Shown: in pieces, positions 31,717-47,158 of the stretch
Layout of the letters: each line of letters starts with the position of its first letter
How positions within the stretch are numbered: the stretch's first letter is position 1
From: Octopus vulgaris
Taxonomy: Eukaryota
Length of the DNA: 64,000 nucleotides
NCBI GenBank assembly: GCA_951406725.2
Contig: OX597818.1
Span: 30,814,001-30,878,000, forward strand
Direction of reading: 5' to 3'
Program-made: the position numbers and the translations under genes
Notes under the pieces: model-generated
The model's database searches: none
Seen by the model: only the letters and a program-made list of their open reading frames with translations
Told to the model about the DNA's origin: nothing

Positions 31717-31790
31717 CTTTTCCATTTCTACATAAACCTCTTCAAAGAATTCATCATAGTGCTGTTGGATCTCAAGCTCTCCCATTTGGA
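31717..31790 (-). CDS. U2AF1: U2AF1 exon 4b (mutually exclusive, 74 nt)
   Basis: tgttttcgtttag / AAG|gtaacc; xQMGELEIQQHYDEFFEEVYVEMEK; same phases as 4a, no stops. Confidence 0.88.
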
Positions 31791-32550
31791 CTAAACGAAA
31801 ACAGAGCACCAGCAGATATAGAATAGTGGGATAACAATTATAATACCTATAACCAACAGGCTAGGAGGAGCACTACACTAGGAATTAGAGTACAAAATAA
31901 CTATTTTAACAGCTTCAAGTCAACAAACTGAAAAATAATGTAAGAAGGAAACAAAAGCTGTAAAATGAAGTGCATTAGTTTGGACTGAAAAATGTAGGCT
32001 AGATGAGTGGAAATGGTATTATGAATTGTTTAAGTATTTTTATTACAAAATAATGTGAAACAAGTGCTTTATTGCAATCTTTAGAATGATTACAATAAGA
32101 AATATCATTTCCACTCAAACTGATCAAATAATCCAATGTTTATCTGCAAATGAAAATAAAAATGAGTTATTTGAAAAATATTTTTACCAGAGAATGGTGA
32201 AAACGATGTACTGGCTGTAAAAGTTGTAAAGCATGATTTGAAAGGTTATTAATTAGAAAACAGAATAAAAAAGAAAAAATTTTTTTATATCAGCCAAAAG
32301 TACTAACTATCACCATTCTCTGGTAATAGAAATCCCAAAATTTACAACATGGAAACAATAAGGAAAGGAAGGAAATGAATGATATATATTTAATTTAAAT
32401 ATTTTTGCAAAGAATATCTTGTTTCCATGACACAAATTCTGGACTGAAATATTTAGAGCAAGAACAATGAGAAAAAAAAAAAAACATTGCAAAATAATTG
32501 TTTGTTTGTCCTGTGCTAGCGCTGAAAGGAAAGCAAGAAAGGAGGGTTAC

Positions 32551-32627
32551 CTTGTCCTCTATTTCACAAAATACCTCCTCGAAAAAATCATCAAAATCCT
32601 GTTGCGCTTCAACATCGTCCATTGTCA
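32551..32627 (-). CDS. U2AF1: U2AF1 exon 4a (mutually exclusive, 77 nt)
   Basis: tacttcttttcag / AAG|gtaacc; xTMDDVEAQQDFDDFFEEVFCEIEDK; phase 1 in, phase 0 out. Confidence 0.92.
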
Positions 32628-35410
32628 CTGAAAAGAAGTAACAAACATGAAGATATTCCTTCATGGCACAACAGGGAAGGAATGTCATAGTGGCAGTTAA
32701 AATTTAGATAGAATAATGGGACAAGAAGCTTGTAGTTGATTTATAGTGACTAAAGTAACAGGAGGATAACTTGGGACTTGTGAAGATTTCCCCTCATTTA
32801 TACAATCCTTGCAGCGTCATATTAGTGCACAGAATTTAATTAATAACTCAAGATCCAAGCAGCGTTAAGGAATTACAGATTATTAAATTTATCGAGATCC
32901 ACTGTGCAGCATTAATGGAATATGTATTTATACAGAATGGAAATAGTAAGGTATTTATCACAACATCTTAAAGTCCAGTTAAAATACTAATTCAACTTAG
33001 ATTCCTCTGCAGTGCTCAAGAAGAGAGGTTCATTAGGTATGTCGAGTAATAACAAAACAAAAATAGTGAACCACTAAAAGATTTTTTCTAGACTTTTATA
33101 CCTTAGCTTAACATGCATTTCAACTATATACATTGCCAAACACAGTTTGAGGTTTTAAACAGGTAGAAATGTTTAGTATAATTCTTTTTAAAAATCCACA
33201 CTATTTTCATGATAAAAAAAAGGAATGAAATGATAACTAAGAATAAAAAAAAAACCGAGTGATGAGGTGAGGATATATTCATGAATATTGAAGTGATTTT
33301 TCTCAAAAGAGAATGGAAATCAGTTTTCAATTTCGTATTGTCACGACGACAAAACTTGTCAAAGTAAATGAAGATTAGAAATAGTAATATATATATATAT
33401 TTAAATGGTTGCATTCAAGAGGGGTCAAATAGTCATATATATATTATAATATATAAAAGACAAGAGTTTGCTTTTGAATCAGTTCTGATCAAGGTTACCT
33501 TAATATTTTTGTACTAATTATTTTAATATTCCATTGACGAGAACAAGCTGCTAAAATAAGTGCTACTGGCTGCAAGATATTTTTCTCGTTGCCCCAGAGC
33601 TAACTTGAATGAATGTGTTCAAGGATTACAATAGTGAAGAAATCTTAAGTTAAGGAGACAGCTAAGCTAAGTTGATAAAATACCAGAAGAAAAGCTGCTT
33701 TAGGGAGCAGTGAACATTTACCTTGCTGTCAATCACTGAGCAAGTTAAGCATACAAAGAAAAATGACAAATTGATGATTTTTTTAATACAAAAAATGAAA
33801 ACATTGTATTATGGACAATTGTACTATTTAAAAAAATAAATAAATAAATAAAGGAAAGCATAAAAATCAACAAAATACAAGAAGCAAATAATATAAGGAT
33901 CATATGTAATATGATTTCATAACAGCATGGCAATCTTAAGATTTGGCTGTCTAAGAAAGAAAATGGTCAAAACCATTTTATAGATAATAGTTATATATTT
34001 AAAATAATTTTCAATCAAGTTAGGAAGGAGTGTTGTGTGCGTAAGTATGTGTTTTAGAAACTTCAATTTGATTAGAAACCAGTTGCTGGTACTCCTTCCA
34101 AAGGATCACATTGTAACTTAATGATATTGCAACAAATCTGATATTGGTGGTCTTCAAGTAATGAATTCAATGTTTTAGTAGAAAACATCTTTAACAATGA
34201 TTCTGAATATAAAGTTACAAATCAAATGAAATGACTGCCAGGCTTTTATGAACACTGCTAAAGCAATAAAAAGAATAAGGCTAATGATAAAGAACACCAT
34301 GTGGACAAATACAACAATGAAGAATAACAAATAGAAAGTGACAGATCCAAAGACATGGAGACAAAGAAGCTGTGTGAAAGTGTTGAAATGGTCACAACAA
34401 CTAGTAAAACACAAAGACACAGCTTCAAAATTTAGAAGCCATTAATGTACACAAACATGTGGAAAGATAAATGGATAGATCAACTAACAATTTGAAATAA
34501 ACAGAAGAAAACACAAAATACAATTTAAACAAATTAAAATCACAACAATAAAAGTGACAACTCAATATATAATTATTTTGGCTCAGAGAAATTTTTATGG
34601 AGTTTATTTTTAACAATTGGATAACTTAGATTTCAATATTTTGTTAACTGGAATAATCAAATTGGTTAATAAAATACCAAGCAAGTTGATATATTGTTTT
34701 GTCACCGTGAAAAACATTCAAAAGGGTTAGTATACTGTGCTTAAATGAGATATATACAGAAAACTTTTGAAACAAAAATTTAAAACGTTTTAAATAATTT
34801 AGTAAGTAGTATGATTTCTTAAATAAGCTGAATTAAAAGTATTAATATACTCTACAAGTAGTTTTTCTTTTAATGTGATAGGTTAATGATTTTCAAATTT
34901 TTGCATATAATATTGTTTTTAACAAGTGAATATCATTAGAAATAAAGAATATTGTATAATTAATCCACATAATATAGCCAGAATAAAGTATTTAATACTG
35001 ATTTTTTATACTGACACAGGGTCACAAATTAGTTAAGAGAGAGACACAGGTCATTTAATTAATAGGATTTGAACTTAGAATATAGAAACCATGAAGACAT
35101 TTCGTTTGGTACTTTAGAATTTCTATCACTCTCCTTCCTAATAATAATTTGCAAGGGAATGAGGCAGGAAGTGGCCCAGCAATGCTAATGAAGATGCTCA
35201 CCAGTACACAAAGGACAGCTTTATGAGCATGGAATGGTAACAATCATTTAAGCAGGTAGTGAAATCTGTTAAAAAATTTATTTTAAAAACTGCAGACATA
35301 AGATTTAGTAGGACTACAGTCGGTGTAGAGCACACAGCATCATGATTAACAGTCAGCTTAAGTGGTAGGTGTTACAAATGTAGTTAGACCTACTTTCTTC
35401 TATCTCAGGA

Positions 35411-35830
35411 ACTAGTTAGTTAGTTAATTTTTTGGCTCAAAAAGCAAAAAGCAAGGCCATGTAGGGGGACATGGAGTTATGTACAGGGTGGTGTTCATGT
35501 AGAGTCCAGGCCACTTGTGGTCAAGGGAGACTTTGAACCGAGCGGTCGTCGGCATCTTCACCATCTCGTCCGGTAGCTTATTCCACGGATCCGCAACCCG
35601 GACGGAGAAAGCCTCTCTCCTTCGATTGAAATGAAATTGTTGCAGATAGAGCTTTTCGGAATGACCCTGCAGCCGACGCTCTGGAGCAGGAGTGAAGAAC
35701 AGCTCTTTCGAGAGGTTACACTTTCTGCTTATGATGTTGTGAGCAAGAATGAGATCACCATGGCGGCGGCGTTTTTCTAGAGAATAAAGGTCGAGCGTCT
35801 TCAGCCTTTCTTCATAAGACAAATTCTTGA
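35411..35830 (-). mobile_element. CR1-like LINE 3' fragment with (TAAC)n tail
   Basis: SYEERLKTLDLYSLEKRRRHGDLI...FSVRVADPWNKLP. Confidence 0.88.
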
Positions 35831-37469
35831 GACATGGCTATCTAGCTGCACTTTAAGATAAATCAAATTCTTGAATATTACTCATATTCCAGCAATTCAA
35901 GGACGATATATATTCATTTGCAATTATGATTTCATATATAAAAAAACTCCTTTATTCATATGACCAATTTATATCTAATTCTTAGTCTTGCATTTTGTTT
36001 TTAAGATTATGATGTTTAAATAAAAAAAGAAAACAGACTATGTTCATATTTCTTTGTTATTATGTAAAACCTTGAGCACTTCTCATTTATCACAGTATAA
36101 ACATATATATATATACACACATATATATATACATCATATATAACCCCACACAAAATTCTCTCTTAAATACAAACACAGCATGCAAGAAGACAATATTGCA
36201 AACAAAAATAAAAACCAATGAAAAATCCCCCAAAAGTTACATCATAAAAAATCAACTAATTGTCAACATTAAAAAACATAAAACACAATCCTGTGTAATG
36301 CCTTGGATGAATTGTGAAGAAATCAAAGAGAAAATTGTTATAATAAAAGAAGTAGCATAGATACTTTGTATGTAAAGCATGGAAAAGAGGAAACAATTTG
36401 TTGAAACTATAGAAAAATAGGTGTAAAGTTGTTTAAGTAAATACAATACTAGTATATGAAAAAAACAGGAGCTTAGAAATAGTTTAAGTAATATGCTAAG
36501 AAATATTTAAATTAAAAGATAAAGATGTAAAAATAGAAAATAAAAAATTAGCACTTTTTTTTAAAGTAACATTTTGTAAAATCAGGAACATGTAAGTATA
36601 TATTGTAGTTTAAGAACAAAAACTTTGTAATTATTAAATAATTAAAAGTTGACAAAATAGAACTGTCTTATGGGATGGCAGAAGGGAGAGAAAATATATT
36701 AAGGGGGTGAGCTATTTTTAAAATAAAGATTTGAATTAAAAGCAATATTTTAAATTAAGTATTATTCCAGTTCAGATACTTTTTAAAAGAAATAACTTCT
36801 AAAAATAATTTTTCTTATTAATTTCTTTCAAAATGACATAACTCTAAGTAACTGCTAAAAGTTATGGAATAAAAAAAAATCAATTAAAAAAATGTCAACT
36901 AAACAAATTTGCTACACAAATTCTTGCTAGAAGAACTAAAGAATAAGATTTTCATATACACATACACTAATATTAAATTAATTTGACCCAAATTGTACTG
37001 TTTACATTTAAAGAGGTTTTAGATCTTTCAATATTTCAATCGTAAACAGTCTATAAATAATCGAAATATCTGCTTAACTTCCAACACTGGAATTTTATAG
37101 TTTGATATTACATGTGTTCTATGATTTAAGATAGAACATACTTCAATTATAGGCACCCCTTTGTCTCAATATGTCATGCAAACAGCACAAATTGGTCTGG
37201 CTGGCAGGGAGATAGTGGATCATCTAATTATTGGAATAATCAAGAGTAGATAAATATAACCAGCACAAGATGTCTTGTCAAAAGACACATTTTCAGTAAA
37301 AATTTAATTTACATTCCCTGAGTGTACTAATGTATTAATTTATGTATTACTGACTAAATGTTCAAAACACTGTAAAACTAGTGAAGTGATTTGAACATTG
37401 AGTACCTCATTTTTCCTGGACACTCTCCCTTAATGTGGTATTTTGACCCTTTTTTAAAGATGGAGTTAA

Positions 37470-38320: not shown

Positions 38321-38326
38321 CTGTTT
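38321..38326 (-). CDS. U2AF1: Weaker candidate 6-nt U2AF1 microexon (AAACAG)
   Basis: Consensus CAG|gtaagt donor; nearest upstream acceptor (ttag) 6 nt away; proximal pyrimidine tract poor. Confidence 0.3.
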
Positions 38327-40297
38327 CTAATTCCGGTCCAAAATTGAATGTTTAAATGCAGTCGATCAAAAACAAACAAAAATGCCTATTAATTCATTTG
38401 ATTTCATATTTTCCGCAATAAAATTTTAAAAAATACTTATGTAAGAAAATATTAATCTTGGGTATCAATTGAGAGTACATTTCACTAATTAAACAGCTAT
38501 CATGAGCACTGTCATTTCACCAAGGGACAATGAATTTAAAGCTCAAATGGCTGGTGCACTTGCTTTATGAACTGACATAATTTTTTTTAAATCCCTTAAA
38601 AGAAATATCTGATAACTAGGTCTTGTGTATATGACAGCCCCAGTTGATTTTTAACCCTCAACCTGATGGAAAAATCAAATGGTAAGGTTGATATACTGAA
38701 TGGAGTACGTAAAATTTTCTTTATAGAAATTTGCCTTTTAGTTAGGAAAGAAAGCAAAAACCTAGCAGTAATTGTTAGCAACTCTTAAGAAAAGGTAAGA
38801 TAATTGCAAGAAATAAAAATAAAATAAAAAATTTTTTAAAAATAAGAAAAAAACATGCTTACAAGAAAATTTTTCTATGTCAAAAGGAAACAAGTCAGTA
38901 ATTTGAAATGTAAAGTATGCCTATTTTGGATAAACATACAATTTTAACATCAATGTAAAATGTAAACAGTGGTTTACACCAAAGGCTCTTGTCACTGTGG
39001 AAAGAAAAAGCAGGATTATCTAACTAGTTTCTAGTTTTCTTAACCTTAATCAGAGAAAGTATCCATCTGTCCACAAAGAGGATTAGGAGCTTAGAGCTAT
39101 TTATAGTGTATGGAAATTAGGGATTCAATTAAACTGGTCCTGCTCATTTACATAAGAGTTCATGACCTGATATGCTTAATAATGTACTATGCAGCATTTT
39201 AGATAATTTTGTAATGTATACCATTTTGTTTTGATAACCATAATAGTAAAGTAATAACCCTGTTATCAGCATATGCTTTATTAACATCAATCAAACAAAC
39301 CAGTCGAACTGCCTTCTAGTTTCTATACCCTAAAGTTATAAGCAATCACTCTTTATGCGAATAGATGAGTATATTTTCTGTTTATGGTCTAAGACTCAAA
39401 ACTAACCAGATCAATCCCATTTTTTCTGTCTACAGAAAGATCAAAACCAAATGCAACCACTATTTTTTACAGTAATGCTGAAATTGTATGTTTATCAGAA
39501 AGAGGTTTGCCATATATTTCAAATTATCCAAAATACTATGCAGTGCATTATTAAATAATTCATCTAGTGGCTTGTCGTCAGAAAGTGTCCAATTCTAAAC
39601 TATTTTAAATCCTCTTAAAGTTTTTGATTACATTTCACACAACTAACTAGGAAGGGACCTCACTTCACATAAAGTAAAAGATCTCACATTTCCTATTCTT
39701 TTAAGACAAAACTTCTTAAACTGCTAATCTGCCAAAACTTAGAAATAAAGTCATAACCTTTTTAAACTTTTAAAATTTCTGTCACATCAGTTAAAAGTAA
39801 TTTTTCTTAAATGTTTTAAAATGATTCTAAACTTTATTTCTAATTAAGGATTTTTATCAAATATACTATGAAGAATAATATAATTTCCAAAAGAAAATAG
39901 TTTTGAATATTATTTAAAACACTTTTTTCAAATTTTCATTACTCTGTAATTATTTTGATAACGTTTAGATTTACAAAAATAAAATAATGCATTTGTCATA
40001 TAACTTAAGCTGCATTTTAACGAAAATAAGTCAAATTGTAGTCATAAATATAAAAAAAAAAAAAAAAATACAAATCAAATATTTCAAAAAAATAATTTGG
40101 TAGTTTCAGTTTAAGACAGAAAGAAACCTAATTTTACATACTATTATTATTATATACCTATCATTAGGTCTACTAAGCCCCTGTAAAATGATAGTATTTA
40201 CACTAACTGTGCTTATCAGATTAAAGAAAAAAAAGGGCTATTTACTAATTGGCACAAACTTCCATAGGCTTCCAGGATAGGATGATGAATGACTTAC

Positions 40298-40303
40298 CAG
40301 GAA
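40298..40303 (-). CDS. U2AF1: Candidate 6-nt U2AF1 microexon (TTCCTG)
   Basis: Long T tract ending cttttgcag, then TTCCTG, then consensus donor gtaagt; frame-preserving. Confidence 0.6.
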
Positions 40304-40544: not shown

Positions 40545-40611
40545 TATGAGAGCCATCAGCTGTAAGTGCAGCATTTTGAGGGTTTAGGTATAGATTCTGT
40601 AGCAGTACTGT
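40545..40611 (-). CDS. U2AF1: U2AF1 exon 3
   Basis: tatatag / A|gtaagt; TVLLQNLYLNPQNAALTADGSH; 67 nt, ends in phase 1. Confidence 0.95.
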
Positions 40612-43616: not shown

Positions 43617-43704
43617 CTGACTGAAAGTGGGTTTGTTGTGCAGGCGAGAACATCTTTCTCCATGCCTACAAGCTCCAATTTTGAAGTAAAAGGAACAATT
43701 AACC
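43617..43704 (-). CDS. U2AF1: U2AF1 exon 2 (zinc finger 1)
   Basis: ttttaag / CAG|gtatgt; (K)[33 protein letters not shown] finger; 88 nt. Confidence 0.97.
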
Positions 43705-47114: not shown

Positions 47115-47158
47115 TTGTCCTTTTCTGTGCCAAAAATTGACGCAAGATACTCAGCCAT
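47115..47158 (-). CDS. U2AF1: U2AF1 (U2AF35) coding exon 1
   Basis: ATG at 47158; MAEYLASIFGTEKD-AA|gtaatt; 44 nt. Confidence 0.97.

What the first reader, a model, noticed from the sequence alone, without database searches (positions are those of the whole stretch)
31717..32627. Tandemly duplicated, frame-enforced mutually exclusive exons in U2AF1, distinct from the vertebrate 3/Ab pair
Seen: two paralogous exons about 760 nt apart, 4a (77 nt, TMDDVEAQQDFDDFFEEVFCEIEDK) and 4b (74 nt, QMGELEIQQHYDEFFEEVYVEMEK). Both are phase 1 to 0, with intact acceptors and identical AAG|gtaacc donors. Including both or skipping both shifts the frame. They differ at many nucleotides yet keep the QQ..D.FFEEV..E.E pattern, which argues for purifying selection on both. 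Known: vertebrate U2AF1 has mutually exclusive duplicated exons 3/Ab, the preceding 67-nt exon, and the segment duplicated here is the acidic helix A of the UHM that contacts U2AF65/ULM partners. Inference: an independent, convergent two-isoform switch in a core 3' splice-site factor, which could tune partner binding or AG selection by tissue.
Basis: partly seen in the sequence, partly recalled or inferred. Interest (0 to 1): 0.9.

Follow-up and report, generated by a model that had tools for sequence, protein, structure and literature searches.

The report
Mollusc-wide twin exons in U2AF1
The octopus gene for the core splicing protein U2AF1 holds two tandem copies of one exon, both also found in clams, oysters, scallops and limpets, which are likely used one at a time to make two versions of the protein, an old arrangement that likely arose separately from the similar one known in vertebrates.

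Summary
Observation confirmed. The pair is not octopus-specific. Nine named mollusc species have isoform pairs identical outside this exon, and 3 of 3 metagenome loci carry 4a then 4b at the same lengths. 4b forms one clade (95/92) over cephalopods, bivalves, gastropods and a chiton; 12 of 12 non-mollusc animals have one 4a-length form. Orthologues are under strong purifying selection. The exon encodes UHM helix A, next to but not the vertebrate 3/Ab exon. New here: 4b lacks one residue and so has the helix end of fission-yeast U2AF23; heterobranch snails show only 4a-type, in two genes; two microexons and a likely poison donor lie upstream. The isoforms already exist as unnamed RefSeq models (O. 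sinensis X1 to X5 match letter for letter), but nine paper searches found no description. No junction reads were obtained; tissue regulation and functional difference are untested, and the one dataset seen shows under 5 points difference between gonads.

The parts
47115..47158 (-). U2AF1 exon 1, coding part (44 nt from ATG)
43617..43704 (-). exon 2 (88 nt), zinc finger 1
40545..40611 (-). exon 3 (67 nt), single copy; homologous to the vertebrate duplicated exon 3/Ab
   Evidence: no second copy in the window
40298..40303 (-). microexon 1 (6 nt, frame-keeping)
   Evidence: isoforms with it are identical to O. sinensis RefSeq X1-X4
40246..40303 (-). extended form of microexon 1 (58 nt, downstream donor); stop at codon 92, likely poison isoform
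   Evidence: its out-of-frame ORF is identical to O. sinensis X5 (P0027); a like model exists in O. bimaculoides (P0003)
38321..38326 (-). microexon 2 (6 nt, frame-keeping)
   Evidence: O. sinensis X1 and X2
32551..32627 (-). exon 4a (77 nt, phase 1 to 0), helix A of the UHM, animal-type length
31717..31790 (-). exon 4b (74 nt, phase 1 to 0), helix A one residue shorter, mollusc-specific
27881..27952 (-). exon 5 (72 nt)
26482..26615 (-). exon 6 (134 nt), holds the RWF motif
26299..26397 (-). exon 7 (99 nt), zinc finger 2
26018..26198 (-). exon 8, coding part (RS tail to stop)

Best explanation
U2AF1 in this octopus carries two tandem copies of the helix-A exon, both kept across molluscs, that are likely spliced one at a time to give two working U2AF35 proteins, with messages holding both or neither predicted to be removed by nonsense-mediated decay. 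Shown: the two exons, their phases, the early stops, their presence and order in other molluscs, purifying selection, and proteins on cDNA-sized contigs that join each exon to exon 5. Inferred: one duplication before the molluscan classes split; 4b is the common form and 4a the minor one; both forms still bind U2AF2, because the acidic and aromatic core (human 79, 81-84, 88) is invariant and 4b has the helix length of the solved fission-yeast complex; the differences (74, 77, 78, 80 in the first half of the helix, 86-87 and the missing residue 91 at its end) retune packing against helix alpha6 and the U2AF2 extension, and so the stability or amount of heterodimer and, through that, 3' splice-site choice, as reported for the vertebrate pair.
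For: Anatomy. Single gene: 7 of 7 matches in G000 lie in this locus. Conservation: 9 same-species isoform pairs identical before and after exon 4 (O. sinensis, Pecten, Mercenaria, Gigantopelta, Patella, Magallana, C. virginica, C. angulata, Sinanodonta); 3 of 3 metagenome loci hold 4a then 4b at 77 and 74 nt. Selection: pN 0.068-0.138 among 4a, 0.016-0.072 among 4b, 0.24-0.29 between paralogues, with pS 0.36-1.15. One origin: 21 of 21 4b rows form one side of a branch, 95/92; 12 of 12 outgroup rows have the long form; both 4a (12 of 12) and 4b (19 of 21) have D at position 70 where outgroups have S or T. Transcription: P0151 (4a to exon 5, 1003-nt contig) and P0011 (4b, 986-nt contig) share an identical downstream sequence; a pearl-oyster rMATS table lists two MXE events in this gene. 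Structure: 4b aligns to 4YH8 without a gap at the helix end and to 1JMT with one gap; alpha2 packs on alpha6 and the large subunit (passages, PMC4536312). Precedent: PMC5224494 section 23, PMC6821156 abstract.
Against: No junction reads were obtained for this species, so exclusivity and the ratio of forms are not measured. Gene models from 6 species (Tegillarca, Mya, Nucella, two Mytilus, Magallana) put both exons in one frame by shifted boundaries; most look like prediction artefacts, but M. californianus X2 is a RefSeq isoform. No conserved intronic element or pairing that would enforce exclusivity was found. Heterobranch snails show no 4b in 10 of 10 rows, so one form can suffice. The pearl-oyster MXE rows carry no coordinates and differ by only 0.028 and 0.049 between ovary and testis. 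The 4a rows do not form a single group on the 25-column tree (3 changes). No binding or stability data exist for either form.
Confidence: 0.62

Rival explanations
1. The two forms are close to equal in function; the pair is kept mainly as a dosage control, in which competing exons (with the poison donor upstream) send part of the message to decay and let U2AF regulate its own level.
For: Both-in, both-out and the 58-nt extension all give early stops. The vertebrate both/neither messages are degraded by NMD (passage, PMC5224494). The core ULM-facing positions are the same in both exons. Gonad difference is small.
Against: Each exon keeps its own diagnostic residues across classes (4b: Y86 in 21 of 21, missing 91 in 21 of 21, I or L at 74; 4a: A or G at 74 in 12 of 12, no H at 77). 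Equal function would not hold such paralogue-specific patterns; dosage control needs no second coding copy.
Confidence: 0.2
2. The pair is a strongly tissue-specific switch (for example neural 4a with microexons against general 4b) that drives a distinct splicing programme.
For: Two 6-nt microexons sit directly upstream; U2AF1 contacts the eMIC domain and represses neural microexons in flies and humans (passages, PMC8797185). 4b dominates among unnamed short-contig proteins, 13 to 1 after 9 heterobranch-like rows are set aside, which fits a restricted 4a.
Against: No tissue data were obtained; RefSeq joins the microexons to both 4a and 4b; the ovary-testis difference is under 0.05; the 13 to 1 count is biased, since 2 of 3 searches used 4b queries.
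Confidence: 0.13
3. One exon is a dead duplicate or only a gene-model artefact.
For: No reads laid here; the O. vulgaris GenBank annotation splits the gene into two odd models (P0099, P0041).
Against: Both exons are intact with low pN in 4 of 4 loci, appear in isoform pairs of 9 species and on cDNA-sized contigs (P0151, P0011).
Confidence: 0.03

Closest known systems
Vertebrate U2AF1 exons 3 and Ab (U2AF35a/b; PMC5224494, PMC6821156, PMC4494069)
   Same: Same gene and domain; tandem homologous exons, neither a multiple of three; both or neither gives a premature stop; changes fall in or beside helix A (alpha2).
   Different: Different exon: vertebrates duplicated the 67-nt exon (octopus exon 3, single here); molluscs duplicated the next one, human residues 68-92. 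The mollusc copies differ more (55% mean identity between types, against seven variant residues in vertebrates) and differ in length by one residue. Vertebrate origin is given as jawed vertebrates.
Mutually exclusive homologous exons from tandem duplication in general (PMC4494069 passages; PMC9741552, PMC8373072, PMC3342872 seen as search listings only)
   Same: Origin by tandem duplication, same phase, long conservation, one copy lost in some lineages after gene duplication.
   Different: No enforcing feature of the short-intron or conserved-pairing type was found here; in heterobranchs both gene copies keep the 4a type rather than dividing the two exons.
S. pombe U2AF23 (PDB 4YH8) and other UHMs such as Tat-SF1 (2DIT)
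   Same: 4b has the same E-x-x-K-Y/F-G end of helix A, with no gap in the alignments.
   Different: These are single constitutive forms; animal U2AF35 otherwise has one more residue (1JMT, 12 of 12 outgroups), so 4b reached this length again by a deletion.
Duplicated U2AF genes in the tunicate Fritillaria borealis (PMC13326754, passages)
   Same: Two versions of U2AF1 with changed UHM that can form different heterodimers.
   Different: Whole-gene duplicates tied to non-canonical introns; here one gene, one exon, canonical GT-AG sites.

Membership tests
U2AF1 / U2AF35 orthologue | CCCH zinc finger, UHM with RWF motif, second CCCH finger, RS tail; best match to U2AF small subunits | tested here: met
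   (4YH8 E 4e-77, 1JMT E 2e-47)
Tandem-duplicated mutually exclusive homologous exons | Two adjacent homologous exons of like length and same phase in one gene | tested here: met
Tandem-duplicated mutually exclusive homologous exons | Each exon joined singly to the flanking exons in messages | tested here: inconclusive
   Indirect only: RefSeq isoforms identical to the window's, cDNA-sized contigs P0151 and P0011, uncoordinated MXE rows in pearl oyster. No junction reads.
Tandem-duplicated mutually exclusive homologous exons | Both-in and both-out messages are absent or degraded | tested here: inconclusive
   Both give stops about 300 nt before the last junction; decay not measured; 6 species have in-frame both-in gene models
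Tandem-duplicated mutually exclusive homologous exons | Both copies under purifying selection in related species | tested here: met
Vertebrate U2AF1 3/Ab pair (orthology) | The duplicated exon is the 67-nt exon holding RNP2 and residues 45-66 | tested here: not met
   Exon 3 is single in the window; the duplicate covers residues 68-92
Sterically enforced MXE (branch point close to the upstream donor) | Short intervening intron or long AG-free zone with a distant branch point | tested here: not met
   Intron 458-1608 nt; AG-free zone before 4b 20-71 nt in 4 of 4 loci
RNA-pairing-enforced MXE (docking site and selector) | Conserved complementary intronic elements beside the exons | tested here: inconclusive
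   No 8-mer shared by 3 of 4 loci in any flank; longest inverted repeats are AT-rich, 70-90% paired and not in shared positions (5 longest shown per locus); species too distant for a firm negative
U2/U12 splice-site incompatibility | One flanking intron with a U12 donor (GTATCCTT consensus, recalled) | tested here: not met
   None of the 8 donors in 4 loci has it
Functionally distinct U2AF35 isoforms | Different stability, partners or 3' splice-site preference | not testable with these tools
   needs bench work

The most novel reading that the evidence does not exclude
U2AF1 is a recurrent target of tandem-exon duplication: vertebrates (exon 3), the nemertean Lineus (exon 3 again) and molluscs (exon 4) each made two versions of the same alpha2 surface. 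In molluscs a Cambrian-age switch toggles helix A between the animal-length and a yeast-length form, yielding two U2AF heterodimers with different 3' splice-site preferences that are regulated by tissue and combined with microexons in cephalopods.
Probability: 0.3. Interest if true: 0.75.

Novelty: new variant of a known kind. Interest (0 to 1): 0.5.

Why it matters
U2AF35 reads the AG at nearly every 3' splice site, so any isoform switch can shift splicing genome-wide. A second, independent and very old exon pair on the same helix suggests that this surface is a repeated tuning point and gives a natural experiment on what the animal-specific extra residue in helix A does. It also offers a phylum-level marker (gain in stem molluscs, apparent loss of 4b in heterobranch snails, which include Aplysia and Lymnaea) and corrects broken or both-in gene models in several mollusc annotations. 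The kind of system is well known, which caps the score.

Tried and rejected
Read evidence: the run search listed 23 runs, all as contigs, no RNA holder on record; no reads or contigs were laid, so junction use stays open. No complex prediction was sent, since the pair is a textbook one and one job cannot compare isoforms. Conserved intronic elements: none at 8 nt or more in 3 of 4 loci; inverted repeats unconvincing. Leftover likeness of the introns beside 4a and 4b: downstream not significant (193 of 2000 shuffles), upstream borderline (24 of 2000). Silent-site constraint in 4b: identical codons 44 of 57 against 31 of 60 for 4a, but on two-fold codons 4b 0.78 equals exon 3 0.75, and pairs are not independent; left as a hint. 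A third copy of exon 4 or a second exon 3: none. A second U2AF1 gene: none. Cephalopod-specific origin: rejected. Orthology with vertebrate 3/Ab: rejected. Identical donors as a mechanism: rejected, not conserved. One recalled review was not held. Earlier scan notes were not consulted.

Full report
1. Observation. The window lies on contig C5 of a 2.80 Gb genome; the contig's length, 147,548,901, equals that recorded for Octopus vulgaris proteins. A U2AF1 gene runs on the minus strand from 47158 to 26018 and is single copy: 7 of 7 matches among 62 scored candidates fall in this locus. Exon 4a (32627-32551, 77 nt) and exon 4b (31790-31717, 74 nt) have AG acceptors, AAG|gtaacc donors, phase 1 to 0, and a 760-nt intron between them. 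They match at E 8e-9 within the window, the next hit being E 0.05, and there is no third copy and no second exon 3. Both-in and both-out give stops 316 and 297 nt before the last junction, the position expected to trigger nonsense-mediated decay (established knowledge).

2. Two 6-nt microexons (40303-40298 and 38326-38321) lie between exon 3 and 4a. Splicing the window's exons by coordinates gives proteins identical to O. sinensis RefSeq X1 (both microexons, 4a), X2 (both, 4b), X3 (first, 4a), X4 (first, 4b) and O. bimaculoides X1 (4b alone). A downstream donor lengthens microexon 1 to 58 nt and stops the frame at codon 92; the out-of-frame ORF equals O. sinensis X5. That is likely a poison isoform (inference).

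3. Spread. Three protein searches (26 of 32, 76 of 77 and 119 of 120 candidates) and three cluster look-ups gave 224 proteins: 61 join a 4b-type exon to exon 5, 45 a 4a-type, 118 match neither pattern. All 48 named proteins among the 61 are molluscan; 13 are unnamed. Nine species have 4a and 4b isoforms identical before and after exon 4: O. sinensis, Pecten maximus, Mercenaria, Gigantopelta, Patella, Magallana gigas, Crassostrea virginica, C. angulata, Sinanodonta (9 of the 13 pairs compared; the other 4 were cross-species, unnamed or partial, and all 13 are identical downstream). Six species have models with both exons in a row. A metagenome scan (554 pattern hits, 3 confirmed) gave L002-L004, bivalve-like by their peptides; 3 of 3 hold 4a then 4b at 77 and 74 nt with introns of 458, 889 and 1608 nt.

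4. Age and selection. On 55 chosen rows (of 195 then in hand; one or two per named species), all 21 4b rows, from cephalopods, bivalves, gastropods and the chiton Liolophura, form one side of a branch (95/92); the 12 4a rows need 3 changes, and the tree has only 25 columns. All 12 outgroup rows (nemerteans, annelids, a flatworm, echinoderms, a hemichordate, a mite, a nematode, an acoel) have one long form; further isoforms of echinoderms and hemichordates vary only in the linker before the helix. Both copies share D70 where outgroups have S or T. The simplest reading is one duplication in stem molluscs, over 500 million years ago (date recalled). Caveats: 4a was not seen in the chiton, and no named brachiopod or phoronid was among the hits. 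Among four loci pN is 0.068-0.138 for 4a, 0.016-0.072 for 4b and 0.24-0.29 between paralogues, while silent sites are at or near saturation. Heterobranch snails show only 4a-type exons in 10 of 10 rows, in two genes that differ downstream (88-90 of 95 residues): an apparent loss of 4b, not yet checked in genomes.

5. What the exon encodes. It covers human residues 68-92 (alignment to 1JMT), the long acidic helix A or alpha2. The vertebrate pair is the preceding 67-nt exon (passages of PMC5224494), of jawed-vertebrate origin (passages of PMC4494069), so the two events are independent. Positions 75, 79, 81-84, 88, 90 and 92 are invariant across the 33 4a and 4b rows. UHMs bind the ULM through the RXF loop and an acidic helix with a conserved glutamate (passages of PMC5113200); that these are E84 and E88 in U2AF35 is recalled. 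Diagnostic differences are 74 (A/G against I/L), 77 (D/E/A/M against H/F), 78, 80, 86 (F against Y), 87 and residue 91, absent in 4b; net charge of the octopus peptides is -10 and -7. 4b aligns without a gap at the helix end to S. pombe U2AF23 and Tat-SF1 but with one gap to human U2AF35; yeast and human domains superimpose at 1.19 A, and alpha2 packs against alpha6 and the large-subunit extension (passages of PMC4536312). So 4b very likely folds and binds (inference), and the differences sit where helix packing, not the tryptophan pocket, is set.

6. How it likely works. Each exon is recognised on its own; no steric or U12 barrier is present and no conserved pairing was found; wrong combinations would be cleared by decay, as reported for the vertebrate gene. 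4b is probably the common form: unnamed short-contig proteins run 13 to 1 for 4b once 9 heterobranch-like rows are set aside, and 8 entries without an isoform label (Ylistrum, Mizuhopecten, Haliotis cracherodii, Dreissena, Liolophura, Mytilus edulis, M. trossulus, Ostrea) all carry 4b; 2 of 3 searches used 4b queries, so this is biased. In vertebrates the isoforms differ in U2AF65-dependent level through alpha2/alpha6 contacts (PMC5224494 section 23) and in 3' splice-site preference (PMC6821156 abstract). I infer the same kind of effect here; it is untested. Confidence: about 0.95 that both exons are real and used, 0.62 for the full mechanism.

7. Expression evidence and its limits. No reads were laid. 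P0151 (4a to exon 5) and P0011 (4b) lie on contigs of 1003 and 986 nt, too short for the unspliced gene, and share the same downstream sequence, distinct from Octopus. Supplementary Table S5 of PMC12000136 (Pinctada maxima; rows seen, file cut when stored) lists two MXE events in this gene with ovary-testis differences of 0.028 and 0.049 and no coordinates; its main text names only U2AF2 (passages). Against strict exclusivity, M. californianus RefSeq X2 holds both exons in frame; in the window the first in-frame AG inside 4b is a weak GAG (sequence).

8. Novelty. The isoforms are in public databases as unnamed predictions. Nine full-text searches of the held library gave no paper that describes a molluscan U2AF1 exon pair; only the top 20 or fewer rows were seen for the broad ones, and subscription papers are not held. 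Passages of PMC8797185, PMC13326754 and bioRxiv 10.64898/2026.09.05.749416 showed no mention of it. Verdict: a real, old, apparently undescribed and independent variant of a known kind. Interest 0.5.

Noticed in passing
proteins P0082 and P0092 (Lineus longissimus RefSeq X2 and X1): Same length, differing at only 2 residues (50 and 53), both inside exon 3: possibly a third independent tandem-exon pair in U2AF1, on the same exon as in vertebrates. Protein-level only.
   Followed up: partly
window 40246-40303 (minus): A downstream donor extends microexon 1 to 58 nt and stops the frame; annotated as a 215-residue isoform in two Octopus species, more likely a poison isoform.
   Followed up: partly
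window 38321-38380 (minus): Microexon 2 has a strong donor, a weak purine-rich acceptor, a U-tract set about 45 nt upstream and a UGC between them, recalling eMIC/SRRM4-type neural microexons (pattern recalled).
   Followed up: no
window 33722-33735 (minus): A 14-nt candidate exon with cag acceptor and AAG|gtaaat donor, phase 1 to 0 like 4a and 4b; it would join exon 3 to exon 5 in frame without helix A. Not seen in any protein fetched; may be chance.
   Followed up: no
heterobranch proteins P0080/P0118, P0107/P0101, P0115/P0089, P0109/P0117: Two U2AF1 genes per species, both with a 4a-type exon; no 4b seen.
   Followed up: partly
proteins of oysters, snails, echinoderms and hemichordates (P0060, P0138, P0114, P0116, P0159, P0218, P0219): The linker between exon 3 and helix A varies by small inserts in many phyla, several starting with S-K as if reading into the exon 3 donor; the pearl-oyster table has an A5SS row in this gene with difference -0.133.
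   Followed up: no
proteins P0099 and P0041: The O. vulgaris GenBank annotation splits this gene into two partial models, one ending after 4a and one starting in 4b.
   Followed up: yes
window 35440-35860: A GC-richer stretch inside the intron before 4a that looks like the end of a LINE-type element (judged by eye).
   Followed up: no
window 21000-21800 and 18250-20140: A tandem array of about 23-nt units and a long AT/ACAT microsatellite downstream of the gene.
   Followed up: no
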